This document shows, piece after piece, positions 9,633-62,290 of a stretch of DNA of 64,000 nt. The notes under the pieces are model-generated. The model worked only from the letters and a program-made list of their open reading frames with translations, ran no database searches and had not been told where the DNA came from. Source of the DNA: Octopus sinensis (taxonomy: Eukaryota); assembly GCF_006345805.1 (NCBI RefSeq), contig NC_043020.1, positions 27,652,001 to 27,716,000 of the forward strand. The letters run 5' to 3'. Each line of letters opens with the position of its first letter. Position 1 is the stretch's first letter. Both the position numbers and the translations under genes were made by a program.

Positions 9633-11126
9633 ATGGCGAAGTTTAGCAGCTGTTTCGGTCGATATTGTTCATACCGATGGAAGTTATGCTATATATGTTC
9701 GATTGCGATATTTCTCCTGCAGACGATGAGGGTCGATTTAAGTATGGCCTTTGTTTGTATGTTGAAGACACCAAATCGCACGGCTAACGACGCCAACAAC
9801 ACTCAGAGTACCCAACAGTGTTCTGGCCTTGATACTCACAATCAGTCCTCACACGAAACATACAATGGAGATATCACCTGGAGCAACAATCTTCAAGCGA
9901 ATGTATTAGCCGGTTATTACTACGGTTACATTCTAACAAATATTCTTGGAGGCATTTTAGCAGATAAATATGGCGCTAAAAATATTCTAGGCTTTTCTCT
10001 CGTTTCAGCATCGGCTCTGACTTTGCTCTACCCGAGTTTATCTCGAATAAGTGGTTACTTTACACTTGTCTTAAGGATATTAACTGGGTTAGTATCTGGC
10101 CCGATGTTTCCAACGGTGCAATCTTTATTTGGTCGGTGGGCTCCACCTCTTGAAAGTAGCACATTGATTGGTCTTGTATGTTCTGGTCAACTCATAGGTA
10201 GTATTGTATGTTATTCTATATCGGGTTTCCTCTGTGTGTATGGATTTGACAACGGGTGGGGTTCTATATTTTATATATTTGGGGGAATGTCACTGTTGTT
10301 CAGTTCTGCTTGGTTCTATTTTGTTTACGATCGTCCAGAGCTCCATCCGTCTCTTGGTCAAGAAGAACGCTCGTACTTGAATAAAACTGTAAGGTGTAAA
10401 AGTAGAGTTAAAAACATACCCTGGAAAAACATTTGGAGTTCGTCTGCTGTTTGGGCCATCGTTGTTGCCCACACTTGCTATAACTGGACTGATCTTACCC
10501 TTACCTTATTACTACCACTCTACATGAAAGAAGCCTTAAACGTCGAAACAGAATCAAATGGTTTAATGTCATCTGCTCCTTGGATAGGGCAAGCCATTTC
10601 CTTGCCCTTGTTCGGAAGACTTGCAGATTTTATACGCTCAAAGAACTGTCTGTCAACCCGTTCGATCCGAGTGCTTTTCCAAACTGTGTGTTTCGTTTTC
10701 TCGGCGATTCTATTCATTTCTGTAGGTTTTCTGAAATGTGACCAAGTCCCATTGGCTGGTTTTCTCTTTCTTTTTTCTGGTGTCATCTGGTCTCTCTATA
10801 TAGGCGGTTTTAATGTGAACCACGTTGACATTGCTCCGAAATACGCTGGTGTATTGTATGGTATTACGAATACATTTAGTTCCCTACCAGGATTTGTGGC
10901 TCCAATAACAGCTAGAATACTTACACCGAATGGAACGCAAAAAGAATGGCAAATTGTGTTAGCTTTATGTGCAGGGTTTTCTGTGTTAGGGGCAATAGTA
11001 TATGCGATTATGGCGAAAGGGGAAATTCAAGATTGGGCCAAGTACGAAGATAGTTCTATAAATGAAAGAGAATCTCTGAAGTTAAAAGAGGGAAGAGCAA
11101 TTGACGGAGATTGTGAAACGGTTTAG
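9633..11126 (+). CDS. SLC17A5-like: SLC17/sialin-like MFS anion transporter, copy 1 (497 aa, intronless CDS)
   Basis: Uninterrupted ORF with SLC17 motifs: TM1 RVDLSMA, YYYGY, GGILADKYG, GRWAPPLE, GWGSIFYIFG, PWK..WAI, LPLYMKE, NHVDIAPKYAG, EIQDWA. Confidence 0.95.
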   Translation: MAKFSSCFGRYCSYRWKLCYICSIAIFLLQTMRVDLSMAFVCMLKTPNRTANDANNTQSTQQCSGLDTHNQSSHETYNGDITWSNNLQANVLAGYYYGYILTNILGGILADKYGAKNILGFSLVSASALTLLYPSLSRISGYFTLVLRILTGLVSGPMFPTVQSLFGRWAPPLESSTLIGLVCSGQLIGSIVCYSISGFLCVYGFDNGWGSIFYIFGGMSLLFSSAWFYFVYDRPELHPSLGQEERSYLNKTVRCKSRVKNIPWKNIWSSSAVWAIVVAHTCYNWTDLTLTLLLPLYMKEALNVETESNGLMSSAPWIGQAISLPLFGRLADFIRSKNCLSTRSIRVLFQTVCFVFSAILFISVGFLKCDQVPLAGFLFLFSGVIWSLYIGGFNVNHVDIAPKYAGVLYGITNTFSSLPGFVAPITARILTPNGTQKEWQIVLALCAGFSVLGAIVYAIMAKGEIQDWAKYEDSSINERESLKLKEGRAIDGDCETV

Positions 11127-11799
11127 TGTGTTATCTAGTCGCAAAGATTATTGTGGAAGCTTGGAAAATCAATAAAAACATGAATAACCAATGAAATATG
11201 TTATTATTATTATTATTATTATTATTATTATTATTATTATTATTATTATTAGTTTCATTTGTTTCAATACTGTTTTTGCTTCTTGCCGTGTGTCTTTTTG
11301 ACTCCTAGGGAAGAAACTCGCTGTATACATTGATAAGCCATTAAACTAAACACACCAGAATGCTTATTTTCAAAATGAAATGAAATAAAAAAGATGTGAA
11401 AAAAATGTGAGTGGAAATCGTTGTCATATCGACAAAGCTCTTTTCAGTACGTGTGATGTACCAGTTAATGCAATCTTTTGCACTTCTTTCACGGATGGTA
11501 AACCAGGGATCATTCTCAAATAATTTCCAGTTTCTAGTTTTTATGATTCTTAGTGCTGCTACAATCACTGGTATTGTAAACGTCTTGAGGTGCATGAAGT
11601 GATAACCAAGCCGCAATCCGGTCTTTGATGGATCGTGATCGGTTTGTATTACTCGACCCCCAACTAGATTCGTGGTGGTGGTCTTCAGTGAACGGCTGGC
11701 CGGATTGCAGGATGAACATCAATGACCATCTCAACGATCCATCACGACTTTTGGCAACACAGGTGGAGTAATAACACCACGGAGATACAGAAAGCAATT

Positions 11800-59594: not shown

Positions 59595-60826
59595 CTTGTT
59601 CTATTTCTATTCCTCAGCGCCATACTAATACATTTGTTTGTTTGTACTCCACCTGCCTTCGTCTTTTGTTTATTCTCGTAAACTTTCCCTTTATATATAT
59701 ATATACATATATATATATATATATATATATATATATCTATATATATATATATGTGTGTGTGTGTGTGTGTGTGTGTGTGTATAAATCCATTAAACCCAAC
59801 ATTAATATACTACAATTTATTGCACTCTCTACCAGTTCCACTGGTAAATACGACTTTTTGCATGCCACTCAAAGCTTCTAAACTGCGATAATATATATAT
59901 ATATATATATATATATATATATAATATATATATATATATATATATATATATATTATATATATATATATATATATATATATATACATATATATATATATAT
60001 AATATATATATATATAAACAAATGAGTTAATATCGATTCCTTATATTGACACAGGGCCATGCAAGTCAGTGAATGCACAATCGATAGATTTTTGCCTGAA
60101 CAGAAGACATTTTAAAAGACGTAAAGTAACACTGGAGAAAAACGTTTTCCTTAGTTTCACCCATTCCGTCCACCGACATTTATCAGTGAACGAAAATTTT
60201 CTAAAGATGGATCTTCACTTTTCGCCACTCTTTTGAAACAAAGAGTAAATTACACAGGAAATGAATCAGCATTTTTTTTTTGTTTTGGTAAGTGTAAAGC
60301 TTCAGATAAACGGTGGACAGAAAAGGAATTAGGAAGTTCCATTTTTGGATTTTCTATAAAATTACAGCGCACAAAAAAATCCATGAACCTATTAATTTAC
60401 CTTATTACATTTTTGTCTTGATCCGATGATTTTAATGTGAAATTAAGGCAGAAAGGAACACCAACTCTAGCATATCGATACGTGTCTTTACATTGAGTGG
60501 TAAATGGCAGGCGTGTTTATCGATTGAAAATAGAGCGAAATGACTGCGAAATATAACTGTACCAAAGAGATTCTGACCATAGTTTTGGAAGAACATATTC
60601 TGTGAAGAAAATATAATTTAGAGATCAAGCAAACATCTTTTATATAATGAAATTATTTTTAAATAGATCAAGGTGACCAAATCAATGAAATAATTTGTTA
60701 ATTGTCGAACGCTACCTTTCAGGGTTTATTTCAGCAGACAGAACGTACACCACTCAGGAATTGATATCCTTTCAGATTCGAAACCTCAACCAAGACCTCG
60801 TGAGGATCCGTGGAAAAGATACAACA

Positions 60827-62290
60827 ATGTCTCGATTTACGAATTGTATTCAGCGCTATTGCTCGTGTCGATGGAGATTATGCTATATTTGTGCAATAGC
60901 TTCTCTTGTTATGCAAACATTAAGAGTCGATATAAGTATGGCGTTTGTTTGTATGTTGAAAACCCCGAATCGTACGAGCGAAGAAGTTAACGTTACTACA
61001 AACAACCAACATTGTTCCGGATTCGATAACCGTTCAATGATCGAAAACTATGAAGGAGAGTTTGAATGGAGCGACACGTTACAATCGAACATACTGGCTG
61101 GGTACTTCTATGGATATATAGCAACTAATTATTTGGGTGGTTTATTGGCCGATAAATACGGTGCGAAAAGAGTTGTCGGAGGTTCAATATTCTCAGCATC
61201 CATTCTGACCATTCTTCACCCAAGTCTGTCTCGAATTAGTGGTTACTTGACCCTCGTTCTAAGGATATTAACAGGTATGGCATCAGGACCAATATACCCA
61301 GCGTTTCAATCCTTATATGGACGTTGGGCGCCTCCGCAAGAAATTGGTTCGTTGGTTGGGCTTACATTCGCTGGTCTGTATTTAGGTAATATTGTAGGAC
61401 TTTCAATATCAGGTTATCTTTGTCTTTATGGATTTGACAATGGATGGGGTTCTATATTTTATATATTTGGTGGATTATCGTTGGTGTTTAGTTGTGTGTG
61501 GTTTTATATTGTCTACGATACTCCAGATGCCCATCCAACCATTAGCGAAAAAGAACGTTCTTATTTAAACAAAACTATAATAAGTAAAAAAGTGGTGAAA
61601 AATGTACCATGGAGACGACTAATTTCTTCTCCTGCTGTATGGGCCATTAGCATTGGCTGGTTTGCTAAAAGTTGGACTGGTTTGTCTTTCCAGGTGTTGC
61701 TACCCCTTTATATGAAAGAAGCCTTAAACGTTAATACGACCTCTAATGGTTTAATGTCATCTGCTCCTTCGGTTGGACAAATCATTGCACTACCACTGTG
61801 CGGCAAGTTAGCTGATTTTGTACGTTTAAAGAAATACATATCAACTCGTTGTGTTCGCATTTTATTCCAAACCTTTGCGCTGATTGCTTCAGCATGTCTG
61901 TTGATAGTCATAGGATTCCTCAGATGTGACCAAACCATTCTAATAACTATCTTATTGTTTCTCATTGGTATAACTCTATCATTTTCCAGTGGTGGTGTTC
62001 TTGTCAACAACAATGATATTGCTCCAAGTTATGCTGGTATTATATTTGGAATTGCAAATACAATCGCAGCAACCTCGGGAAGTATTTCTCCCTTATCTGC
62101 AAAAGCTCTCACCCCAAACGGTACACAAGAAGAATGGCAGATCGTGTTTGCTTTGTGTGCTGCTATATGTGTTGTTGGTACAATATTATATGCAATATTA
62201 GCAAGAGGAGAAATTCAAGATTGGGCGATTTCGGAAGACCCTGGGCCATCTGTTCCCCTTAATGACATGAACACCAATGAATCGGCTTAA
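60827..62290 (+). CDS. SLC17A5-like: SLC17/sialin-like transporter, copy 7 (487 aa from the conserved Met), most divergent in TM7
   Basis: ORF 60695-62290. Start placed at MSRFTNC by alignment (acaacaATG context, as in copy 1). Confidence 0.93.
   Translation: MSRFTNCIQRYCSCRWRLCYICAIASLVMQTLRVDISMAFVCMLKTPNRTSEEVNVTTNNQHCSGFDNRSMIENYEGEFEWSDTLQSNILAGYFYGYIATNYLGGLLADKYGAKRVVGGSIFSASILTILHPSLSRISGYLTLVLRILTGMASGPIYPAFQSLYGRWAPPQEIGSLVGLTFAGLYLGNIVGLSISGYLCLYGFDNGWGSIFYIFGGLSLVFSCVWFYIVYDTPDAHPTISEKERSYLNKTIISKKVVKNVPWRRLISSPAVWAISIGWFAKSWTGLSFQVLLPLYMKEALNVNTTSNGLMSSAPSVGQIIALPLCGKLADFVRLKKYISTRCVRILFQTFALIASACLLIVIGFLRCDQTILITILLFLIGITLSFSSGGVLVNNNDIAPSYAGIIFGIANTIAATSGSISPLSAKALTPNGTQEEWQIVFALCAAICVVGTILYAILARGEIQDWAISEDPGPSVPLNDMNTNESA

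What the first reader, a model, noticed from the sequence alone, without database searches (positions are those of the whole stretch)
9633..62290. Receptor-like tandem array of intronless SLC17 genes with hypervariable substrate-pocket segments
Seen: eight co-oriented copies with single-exon CDSs. Copies 3-5 are nearly identical except at TM4-TM5 (MFPAVQ..STLIGISFAGQIL, MCPCVQ..SILIGFSMGGLVV, MLPAVQ..SVLIGITIAGQTV; copy 6 MCPAVL..SVLVAVSFSGLLI; copy 7 IYPAFQ..GSLVGLTFAGLYL), at TM7 and at TM10-11. Known: these helices line the SLC17 central cavity, and a sialin expansion was reported in the Octopus genome. Inference: this is a ligand-diversifying repertoire organised like chemoreceptor clusters, acting either as transporters for varied anions or as chemosensory transceptors.
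Basis: partly seen in the sequence, partly recalled or inferred. Interest (0 to 1): 0.82.

Follow-up and report, generated by a model that had tools for sequence, protein, structure and literature searches.

The report
Shared-leader octopus SLC17 transporter array
A tandem array of octopus sialin-like transporter genes has a different substrate pocket in every copy while gene conversion likely evens out the rest, and its first six copies are likely spliced to one shared non-coding exon, so one promoter would choose among whole transporters predicted to carry different anions.

Summary
The array is real: seven full-length SLC17 copies (six intact, one frameshifted) plus a fragment, not eight genes. 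It is the start of a 23-copy cluster, likely retroposed from an 11-exon gene. The pocket claim holds: 20 sialin pocket positions change 2.3 times faster than other TM sites (LRT 68), although they are the conserved part in outgroups, and all 22 intact paralogs have distinct pockets. 'Hypervariable' is wrong: no dN/dS>1 class was found, and the variable helices carry synonymous peaks and group by orthologue across species while the remainder groups by species. That pattern fits gene conversion sparing old, copy-specific pocket helices. New here: RNA-like contigs from two studies splice into copy 4 at 28508. Their geometry points to one single-copy donor at 4219, upstream of copy 1, shared with copy 3, and copies 1-6 each carry a homologous acceptor. 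They are likely alternative whole-ORF last exons of one transcription unit (the joined letters were not seen). The proton-coupling glutamates are absent, so these are likely voltage-driven anion carriers with different substrates. Nothing supports chemosensory transceptors. The sialin expansion itself is known.

The parts
4019..4219 (+). Likely shared non-coding leader exon; 3' end fixed by the donor, 5' end uncertain (an Inr-like TCAGTC at 4019-4024, motif recalled, or an acceptor at 4018 if a further exon lies upstream); holds one 17-codon uORF
   Evidence: Only TTACAG|GT outside a CDS on the + strand in 60 kb upstream plus the window; single copy in G000 and in the cluster; sequence
4220..4225 (+). 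Consensus 5' splice site GTAAGA
   Evidence: the only CAG|GTRAG on the window's + strand
9276..9295 (+). Predicted 3' splice site of c1 (exon starts 9291)
9633..11126 (+). c1, intact SLC17 CDS, 497 aa; orthologues in O. bimaculoides (P0006) and Argonauta (P0010 clade)
14523..14542 (+). Predicted 3' splice site of c2 (exon starts 14538)
15575..17061 (+). c2, recent duplicate of c1 (97% nt), broken by a 7-nt deletion at 15998/15999; likely pseudogene
   Evidence: deletion not checked against reads
21491..21510 (+). Predicted 3' splice site of c3 (exon starts 21506, CAG|ATTGAT), shares ATTGA with the c4 acceptor
   Evidence: implied by the contig branch point
21647..23128 (+). c3, intact CDS, 493 aa; orthologue O. 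bimaculoides P0090
   Evidence: c3-type contigs in runs X1, X10
21647..21940 (+). c3 codons 1-98: tract homogenised among c3-c6 (pS 0.00-0.09)
22067..22246 (+). c3 codons 141-200 (TM4-TM5): copy-specific pocket segment, synonymous peak (pS 0.42-0.46 among c3-c5)
22457..22546 (+). c3 codons 271-300 (TM7): copy-specific pocket segment
22772..22936 (+). c3 codons 376-430 (TM10-TM11): copy-specific pocket segment
23847..24127 (+). Broken fragment of a further copy (TM8-TM10), the likely 'eighth copy'
28493..28512 (+). 3' splice site of c4 (exon starts 28508); contigs of runs X1 and X2 leave the genome here with 19 unaligned letters
   Evidence: (table 8, records 1 and 25)
28788..30266 (+). c4, intact CDS, 492 aa; likely orthologue O. 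bimaculoides P0001
   Evidence: contigs
35495..35514 (+). Predicted 3' splice site of c5 (exon starts 35510)
35752..37233 (+). c5, intact CDS, 493 aa
   Evidence: c5-type contigs in X1
43915..43934 (+). Predicted 3' splice site of c6 (exon starts 43930)
44451..45923 (+). c6, intact CDS, 490 aa; orthologues P0081 (O. bimaculoides), P0080 (O. vulgaris), P0004 (Argonauta, UFBoot 90)
60827..62290 (+). c7, intact CDS, 487 aa; first member of the second subfamily; lacks the c1-c6 acceptor type, leader unknown

Best explanation
This is the 5' end of an octopod array of single-coding-exon SLC17 transporters in which every copy has its own substrate pocket, likely founded by a retrocopy, likely kept distinct by selection against gene conversion in the pocket helices, and whose first six copies are likely alternative last exons spliced to one shared non-coding leader; the proteins are predicted to be voltage-driven carriers of different organic anions. 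Steps. (1) Shown: the cluster is one clade, sister to an 11-exon gene on another chromosome; inferred: intron loss by retroposition, then tandem duplication before the Argonauta-Octopus split (p about 0.85). (2) Shown: a splice into c4 at 28508 and one matching single-copy donor upstream of c1; inferred: the duplicated unit was acceptor + ORF + 3' end without a promoter, so choice of 3' splice site and polyadenylation site picks one whole transporter per mRNA (p about 0.85 for c3/c4, 0.7 for all of c1-c6; unknown for c7 onwards, and impossible in cis for the two inverted copies). (3) Shown: mosaic synonymous divergence and opposite tree signals; inferred: gene conversion homogenises c3-c6 outside TM4-5, TM7 and TM10-11, and tracts crossing the pocket are purged (p about 0.9 for conversion, 0.7 for selection as the barrier). 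(4) Shown: R57/R168/Y119 and the gating residues are kept, E171/E175, Y54, R195 and the N-terminal tail are lost, and the rest of the pocket is copy-specific; inferred: uniport or potential-driven export of anions with copy-specific preference (p about 0.7 for different substrates, 0.5 for this energetics), probably at the cell surface.
For: Fold and family: model pLDDT 88.8, best structural match sialin 8u3f Z 54.0, rmsd 1.9, 428 aligned. Pocket: dN 0.50 vs 0.22, LRT 68; 9 of 20 pocket sites vs 22 of 309 other TM sites in the top 50 by posterior omega, p=1.5e-5; pairwise difference pocket vs other TM is 34.5% vs 50.6% in 20 outgroup SLC17s, 56.6% vs 32.2% among 22 paralogs, 9.5% vs 7.4% (n.s.) in 16 orthologue pairs; corrected ratios 0.57 [0.32-0.92], 2.37 [1.55-3.66], 1.31 [0.75-2.03]. 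Conversion: c3/c4 pS by segment 0.00, 0.11, 0.46, 0.00, 0.27, 0.02, 0.27, 0.24, heterogeneity p=1.6e-8, and p<2e-6 for all 6 pairs of c3-c6; in the c3/c4 quartet with O. bimaculoides 0 of 13 species-grouping sites but 13 of 16 orthologue-grouping sites lie in the pocket helices, p=1e-5; family-wide synonymous rate peaks at codons 151-185 (1.6-1.7x) and 256-290 (1.4-1.5x). Shared leader: X1 record 1 and X2 record 25 (two studies, two organism labels) both align from 28502 with 19 further letters; 28508 is the best acceptor within 600 nt; 19+6+5 = 30 letters precede the first base that separates c4 (ATTGAC) from c3 (ATTGAT), the same 30-letter overlap seen where X1 record 3 branches into records 4 and 5; the 4219 donor predicts exactly 6 matching letters; chance of TTACAG|GTRAG upstream of c4 about 0.008; YAG|RTYRA with a tract of 11 or more pyrimidines occurs 6 times in the window, once before each of c1-c6 (motif drawn from five of them); the O. 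bimaculoides orthologues of c3, c4, c6 are named isoforms X1-X3 of one entry series, and those of c1, c3, c4 'sialin isoform X1-X3' (a lead only). Retroposition: sister gene has 11 coding exons over 34 kb on C3; cluster clade and cluster+parent clade UFBoot 100. Energetics: T at E171 in 22 of 22, S or L at E175 in 22 of 22; E171Q and E175Q each lose about 95% of sialic acid transport (PMC9858498).
Against: The 19 unaligned letters were not printed and the laid stretch did not include 4219, so no contig was seen to join donor and acceptor; the runs are RNA only by the tool's guess. A polymorphism at 28513 or a trans-spliced leader would give the same contig geometry. Acceptors of c1, c2, c3, c5, c6 are predicted only. 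No site model finds omega>1, so relaxed constraint at the pocket is not excluded; the 10 most variable pocket sites, chosen after the fact, sit at omega 0.67-0.93. Orthologue pockets are not more conserved than other TM sites (30/316 vs 357/4852, p=0.18), and c4/P0001 differs at 8 of 60 residues in TM4-5. With a free synonymous rate the pocket omega is 0.31 vs 0.22, p=0.06. The helical-face test favoured the cavity in only 2 of 7 helices for paralog variation, and the 119 unlisted helix positions gave rho 0.16, p=0.09. Conversion mosaics were weak or absent in the 7 pairs tested outside c3-c6 (p 0.03-0.68). E171/E175 loss is shared with the parent gene and most mollusc outgroups, so it is not an innovation of the array. 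No substrate, tissue or localisation data.
Confidence: 0.66

Rival explanations
1. Redundant dosage array: the copies raise expression of one transport activity; pocket differences reflect relaxed constraint and chance boundaries of conversion tracts.
For: No omega>1 class; most variable pocket sites near omega 1; 4 of 23 C24 copies broken; c3, c4, c5 occur in the same runs.
Against: Overall omega 0.24; 16 orthologue pairs kept between two Octopus species, 5 of 16 with identical pockets; three separate pocket segments escape conversion while tracts between them are homogenised; copies that compete for one leader would not add dosage.
Confidence: 0.14
2. Same transporter repertoire, but each copy is an ordinary gene with its own promoter; the 4219 donor is chance or serves c1 only, or the leader is trans-spliced.
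For: Joined letters unseen; 24.3-kb skip over three acceptors needed for c4; isoform names for c3/c4/c6 orthologues could come from reads mis-mapped across the homogenised 5' CDS; trans-spliced leaders are known to mimic shared first exons in ctenophores (PMC8527503 passages).
Against: No other exact TTACAG|GT outside a CDS in 88.5 kb; no duplicate of the exon between copies; the shared upstream DNA of c3, c4, c7 is a genome-wide repeat, not an exon; branch geometry needs a second transcript with the same 25 upstream letters plus ATTGA.
Confidence: 0.13
3. Chemosensory transceptors: the copies bind different ligands and signal, as a receptor repertoire.
For: Copy number, single coding exon and pocket-focused divergence resemble receptor families; one-exon-per-mRNA choice could give cell-specific expression.
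Against: Residues for alternating access are kept (R57 21 of 22, R168, K136, G328 22 of 22, D350 21 of 22); cytosolic tails are short and not conserved; repertoire is stable between species; I recall no signalling SLC17 (recalled, not searched).
Confidence: 0.06
4. Assembly artefact: near-identical copies are haplotypes laid in tandem.
For: c1/c2 are 97% alike over 1667 bp and c2 is frameshifted.
Against: c3, c4, c6 have separate orthologues in O. bimaculoides; flanks are unrelated beyond a few bases; c3, c4, c5 types coexist in single runs. At most c2 is in doubt.
Confidence: 0.01

Closest known systems
Human sialin SLC17A5 (and VGLUT2, DgoT)
   Same: 12-TM MFS fold (Z 54, rmsd 1.9, 40% identity); R57, R168, Y119, N430, K136, G328 kept.
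   Different: No E171/E175; Y54 is Q/H, R195 mostly lost, Y306 never Y; H298/Y301/N302/F305/S411 vary by copy; no long N-terminal tail; CDS in one exon; 22 intact paralogs.
The octopus 'sialin' expansion of Albertin et al. 2015
   Same: Very likely the same family. The paper was not held; I saw it only cited in passages of two reviews (PMC6062618, PMC6110919).
   Different: Those passages name the expansion only. Six searches listed no paper on this cluster's structure, origin, conversion or pocket; the 2015 supplement, which I could not see, may hold some of it.
Vertebrate UGT1/GCNT2/protocadherin variable-exon clusters (PMC1885805, abstract)
   Same: Tandem variable exons spliced to a shared exon; diversity concentrated on the ligand pocket.
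   Different: There the variable exons are first exons joined to constant coding exons; here the likely shared exon is 5' and non-coding and each variable exon is a whole protein. UGT1 shows positive selection and little conversion; this array shows conversion and no omega>1.
Drosophila genes that share a promoter and 5' non-coding exons (130 genes; PMC4528330 section 8)
   Same: Separate CDSs behind one non-coding leader.
   Different: The section's named examples are pairs of genes; here up to six paralogous whole ORFs form a ligand-varied set.
Dscam exon arrays (PMC3236188 passages) and vertebrate NAT genes (PMC3601968 passages)
   Same: Dscam: old paralog diversity kept without detectable positive selection, selection against conversion proposed. 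NAT: single coding exon, substrate-varied paralogs, some conversion.
   Different: Dscam swaps part-domains and shows no conversion; NAT genes are few, and no shared leader was seen in the passages read.

Membership tests
SLC17 (MFS anion transporters) | 12-TM MFS fold closest to sialin/VGLUT/DgoT | tested here: met
SLC17 (MFS anion transporters) | Conserved TM1 and TM4 arginines (sialin R57, R168) | tested here: met
   R57: R in 21 of 22, K in 1; R168: 22 of 22
SLC17 (MFS anion transporters) | Transport of an organic anion | not testable with these tools
   Needs an assay
Sialin proper (H+/sialic acid symporter) | Proton-coupling E171 and E175 | tested here: not met
   T in 22 of 22; S in 20, L in 2; role from PMC9858498, PMC11116495
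Sialin proper (H+/sialic acid symporter) | Sialic acid contacts Y54, H298, Y301, N302, Y306, S411 | tested here: not met
   Y54 0 of 22, Y306 0 of 22, S411 1 of 22; H298 7 of 22
Sialin proper (H+/sialic acid symporter) | N-terminal dileucine sorting motif (L22/L23) | tested here: not met
   Copies begin about 13 residues before TM1; residue 13 aligns with sialin 37
VGLUT | TM4 glutamate E191 (sialin E175) | tested here: not met
   equivalence
Retrogene-founded tandem array | Intron-free CDS with an intron-bearing sister gene elsewhere | tested here: met
   11-exon sister on C3; other relatives on C22 also match exon by exon
Retrogene-founded tandem array | Poly(A) remnant or target-site duplication | not tested
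   Event predates the Argonauta-Octopus split; marks not expected
Variable-exon cluster (UGT1/Pcdh type) | Tandem paralogous exons spliced to one shared exon | tested here: inconclusive
   Strong indirect support, junction letters unseen
Variable-exon cluster (UGT1/Pcdh type) | Variable first exons joined to constant coding exons | tested here: not met
   Each copy holds a complete CDS; the candidate shared exon is 5' and non-coding
Chemoreceptor-type repertoire | Positively selected ligand-pocket codons | tested here: not met
   (22 paralogs of one genome; conversion and saturation lower power)
Chemoreceptor-type repertoire | Divergence concentrated at the ligand pocket | tested here: met
Chemoreceptor-type repertoire | Expression in sensory cells and ligand-evoked signalling | not testable with these tools
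   Run tissues are coded
Concerted evolution by gene conversion | Paralogs group by species in converted tracts and by orthology elsewhere; mosaic synonymous divergence | tested here: met
   c3-c6; weak in other subfamilies

The most novel reading that the evidence does not exclude
One octopus promoter drives a cassette locus in which regulated splice-site choice selects one of six (perhaps many more) complete transporter ORFs, each with a selected, copy-specific pocket, so that single cells express particular members: a splicing-encoded anion-transport or chemical-sampling code, the mirror image of UGT1/protocadherin clusters, built from a retrogene.
Probability: 0.3. Interest if true: 0.86.

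Novelty: new variant of a known kind. Interest (0 to 1): 0.66.

Why it matters
The sialin expansion has been listed among octopus genome novelties since 2015 without an account, in the papers I could search, of what it is. This locus makes it testable: c3, c4 and c5 are natural near-isogenic variants (about 90% identical) that differ mainly in the pocket helices, a ready panel for asking how SLC17 carriers pick their anion. The likely shared leader would explain how promoterless retrocopy duplicates stay expressed and adds a case of whole-protein choice by splicing. It also warns that gene counts, 'isoform' labels and dN/dS scans at this locus are distorted by exon sharing and conversion.

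Tried and rejected
Site models M1a/M2a, M7/M8, M8a/M8 on 22 intact paralogs, 472 codons, own implementation checked against IQ-TREE M0 (lnL -17579.46 in both), relative branch lengths fixed: no omega>1. Episodic branch-site test: pocket LRT 2.8, other TM 0, non-TM 1.1. Left out before counting: L027 (truncated) and 7 broken loci among the 30 fetched; O. sinensis-labelled cluster proteins were not used as a second species because they may be this assembly; O. vulgaris rows were in the tree but not in the 16 orthologue pairs; L012/P0032 was dropped as uncertain orthology. 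The sliding window was stuck at its start value and was redone. Support values printed after rerooting were misplaced; corrected. The longest-identical-run test (50 of 231 pairs at p<0.01) also scores plain protein conservation and was not relied on. The DNA shared upstream of c3, c4, c7 (18241-18951) was tested as a duplicated first exon and rejected: it is a dispersed repeat. The sigma-70 scan does not apply to an animal. RNA: no RNA holder is listed on record; the lack of cover at 27600-28484 in X1 and X2 (a short low-depth contig in X10) where X17 continues, and the small shares of X13-X16 and X21-X24, are not used as evidence on expression or tissue; depths were not used to rank copies. 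The one lay allowed covered c4 only, so the leader exon and the c2 deletion were not checked against reads. Earlier scan findings: three look-ups, nothing returned. No decapodiform-named member appeared among 78 hits at E<=1e-100, but only 7998 candidates were scored and many hits are unnamed, so octopod-only is not shown. PMC9068888 main text has no hit for sialin, SLC or transporter; its supplements were not searched.

Full report
What is there. The window holds seven full-length SLC17 coding sequences on the + strand, each in one exon: c1 9633-11126, c2 15575-17061, c3 21647-23128, c4 28788-30266, c5 35752-37233, c6 44451-45923, c7 60827-62290. c2 is a 97% copy of c1 with a 7-nt deletion. 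A broken 280-bp piece lies at 23847-24127. So 'eight copies' is six intact, one broken and one fragment. The six intact proteins score MFS_1; c3 matches sialin best by sequence (E 3.5e-102) and by fold (pLDDT 88.8; 8u3f Z 54.0, rmsd 1.9, 428 aligned).

The array is larger than the window. G000:C24 carries 23 full-length copies over about 257 kb, 19 intact and 4 broken, 2 of them inverted; c1 is the first, and the genome search found none upstream. C9726 adds 2 intact and several broken copies, C18 one. Named relatives come from Octopus bimaculoides, O. vulgaris, O. sinensis and Argonauta hians. Sixteen of the 22 intact copies pair one to one with an O. bimaculoides protein (FastTree support 0.73-1.0 for the 13 two-leaf pairs checked), so the repertoire is largely stable.

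Origin. The cluster is one clade (UFBoot 100) whose sister clade (UFBoot 99; joint node 100) contains P0038. P0038 lies on C3 in 11 coding exons over 34 kb, and other relatives on C22 also match exon by exon. Intron loss in the cluster's ancestor, most simply by retroposition, is the inference. Argonauta proteins fall inside the c1 and c6 clades (99 and 90), so the first duplications predate that split.

Do the differences line the pocket? I took 20 positions named as ligand or cavity residues in two sialin structure papers (PMC9858498 part 2, PMC11116495 parts 2-3 of the text) and mapped them through the alignment. Across 22 intact paralogs their dN is 0.50 against 0.22 for 309 other TM codons (LRT 68); 9 of 20 vs 22 of 309 are among the 50 fastest sites (p=1.5e-5). 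In 20 outgroup SLC17s the same positions are the conserved part (34.5% vs 50.6% pairwise difference); among the paralogs this reverses (56.6% vs 32.2%); all 22 pocket signatures differ. Within c3-c5, 7 of 20 pocket sites vary against 44 of 309 (p=0.022). A helical-face test was weaker: paralog variation pointed to the cavity in 2 of 7 helices, and unlisted positions gave p=0.09.

Are they hypervariable? No. M0 omega is 0.24; M1a/M2a and M8a/M8 give LRT 0 and M7/M8 p=0.09; an episodic test on the pocket gives LRT 2.8. Between 16 orthologue pairs pocket sites differ at 30 of 316 vs 357 of 4852 other TM sites (p=0.18). Among c3-c5 the variable segments carry as much synonymous as non-synonymous excess: c3/c4 pS runs 0.00, 0.11, 0.46, 0.00, 0.27, 0.02, 0.27, 0.24 over eight segments (p=1.6e-8), and pN/pS in TM4-5 is about 0.25. 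With O. bimaculoides, c3 differs from P0090 at 2/60, 0/30 and 3/55 residues in the three segments and c6 from P0081 at 1/60, 0/30, 1/55, while in residues 1-140 paralogs within a species (5-8 differences) are closer than orthologues (11-17). In the c3/c4 quartet, 0 of 13 species-grouping sites and 13 of 16 orthologue-grouping sites lie in the pocket helices (p=1e-5). This is the pattern of gene conversion that homogenises most of the CDS and spares old, copy-specific pocket helices. That selection sets the barrier is inferred. c4/P0001 fits less cleanly (8/60 in TM4-5), and the 7 pairs tested in other subfamilies show weak or no mosaic.

The unexpected part: a shared leader. O. bimaculoides orthologues of c1, c3, c4 and c6 carry 'isoform X1-X3' names, which prompted a look at transcripts. 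On window 27600-32900, contigs of X1 (record 1) and X2 (record 25), from two studies and two organism labels, both align from 28502 with 19 further letters that do not fit; the DNA-like run X17 has a contig from 27600 to 28812 (X1, X2 and X10 are RNA by the tool's guess only). Position 28508 is the best 3' splice site within 600 nt of the c4 start. The contigs thus hold 25 letters of an upstream exon ending in TTACAG. Contigs in this run overlap by 30 letters at a branch (record 3 into records 4 and 5), and 25 plus the five letters ATTGA makes 30: the branch base is 28513, exactly where the c4 exon (ATTGAC) parts from the predicted c3 exon at 21506 (ATTGAT). YAG|ATTGA occurs only 3 times in the window. 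In the 60 kb upstream plus the window to 28500 there is one exact TTACAG|GT outside a CDS, the consensus donor at 4219/4220, 5.4 kb before c1 and 24.3 kb before the c4 acceptor; about 0.008 such sites are expected by chance within window 1-28500. It predicts a mismatch at the seventh letter, where the alignment stops. The exon is single-copy in G000 and in the cluster. A related acceptor (YAG|RTYRA with a pyrimidine tract of 11 or more) occurs six times in the window, once before each of c1-c6 (the motif was drawn from five of them). Contigs with exactly the c3 (35 differences) and c5 (20 and 16) counts and c4-type contigs occur together in X1; c3- and c4-type contigs occur in X10. I read c1-c6 as alternative last exons of one unit. 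The joined letters were not printed, so this is inference; a variant at 28513 or a trans-spliced leader (cf. PMC8527503 passages) remain possible. c7 has another acceptor type and its leader is unknown.

How the proteins likely work. R57 (21 of 22, one K), R168 (22 of 22), Y119 (20 of 22) and the structural K136, G328, D350 are kept; E171 is T in all and E175 is S or L in all. In sialin E171Q and E175Q each remove about 95% of transport in one study and the double mutants over 60% in another. The family includes organic anion uniporters (PMC11649914 passage). The long N-terminal tail of sialin and of the parent is gone, and mutating sialin's L22/L23 sends it to the surface. I therefore predict potential-driven anion carriers, probably at the plasma membrane, with copy-specific preference, as for export of varied metabolites or dietary compounds. 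The glutamate loss is older than the array. No substrate or tissue is shown. A transceptor role has no positive evidence.

Comparison and novelty. The octopus sialin expansion is known from Albertin et al. 2015, which I could see only through passages of two reviews. Six searches found no paper on this cluster; three more looked for the architecture. Shared 5' non-coding exons are known (130 Drosophila genes), as are variable-exon clusters with pocket diversity (UGT1, abstract). The combination here, a retrogene-founded array of whole-ORF last exons behind one leader with conversion-resistant pockets, I did not find described. Verdict: new variant of a known kind, interest 0.66; confidence in the full model 0.66.

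Noticed in passing
window 52282-55026 +: 914-codon open frame with weak RVT_1 match (E 4.5e-4, below cut-off), a YVDD motif and a C-terminal GIY-YIG-like motif (recalled): likely a Penelope-type retroelement between c6 and c7, at the boundary of the two subfamilies.
   Followed up: partly
window 22277-22336 + (c3 codons 211-230, TM6): Synonymous rate across all 22 paralogs drops to 0.40 of average (LRT 39), with 53-nt identical runs between copies 30% apart; a far-reaching conversion tract or a nucleotide-level element.
   Followed up: partly
window 9633-11126 vs 15575-17061: Of 15 amino-acid differences between c1 and broken c2, 6 fall in codons 161-183 (TM4-5), the same segment that varies among c3-c5.
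   Followed up: no
c3 residue 35 and 286 (all copies): Asp at sialin N59 in 21 of 22 copies and in the parent, and Asp at F305 in 9 of 22: new acidic groups near R57/R168 and in the pocket that could serve as a proton site or shift charge preference.
   Followed up: no
window 28683-28787 +: c4 5' UTR has several upstream ATGs, one in frame that would add 35 residues; run X1 shows a 1-base deletion at 28747 within it.
   Followed up: no
G000:C9726 (78 kb) and the N gap near G000:C24:27786934: An unplaced contig with 7 further copies may belong in the cluster's single gap; O. vulgaris and O. bimaculoides relatives of its genes lie on the same contigs as the rest.
   Followed up: no
P0087 and P0002: Database proteins that join parts of two neighbouring copies (P0087: L012 start with L011 end; P0002: 695 aa, one and a half transporters); annotation artefacts or cross-copy splicing.
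   Followed up: no
window 33804-34340: About 540-bp imperfect palindrome (93% self reverse match) around (TA)n, between c4 and c5.
   Followed up: no
window 18241-18951, 24364-25015, 58359-58651: Dispersed repeat with many genome-wide copies upstream of c3, c4 and c7.
   Followed up: yes
window 49597-50558 and 8674-9049: 960-bp (CTAT)n array, and a 101-bp tandem repeat of 3.7 copies just upstream of the c1 acceptor.
   Followed up: no
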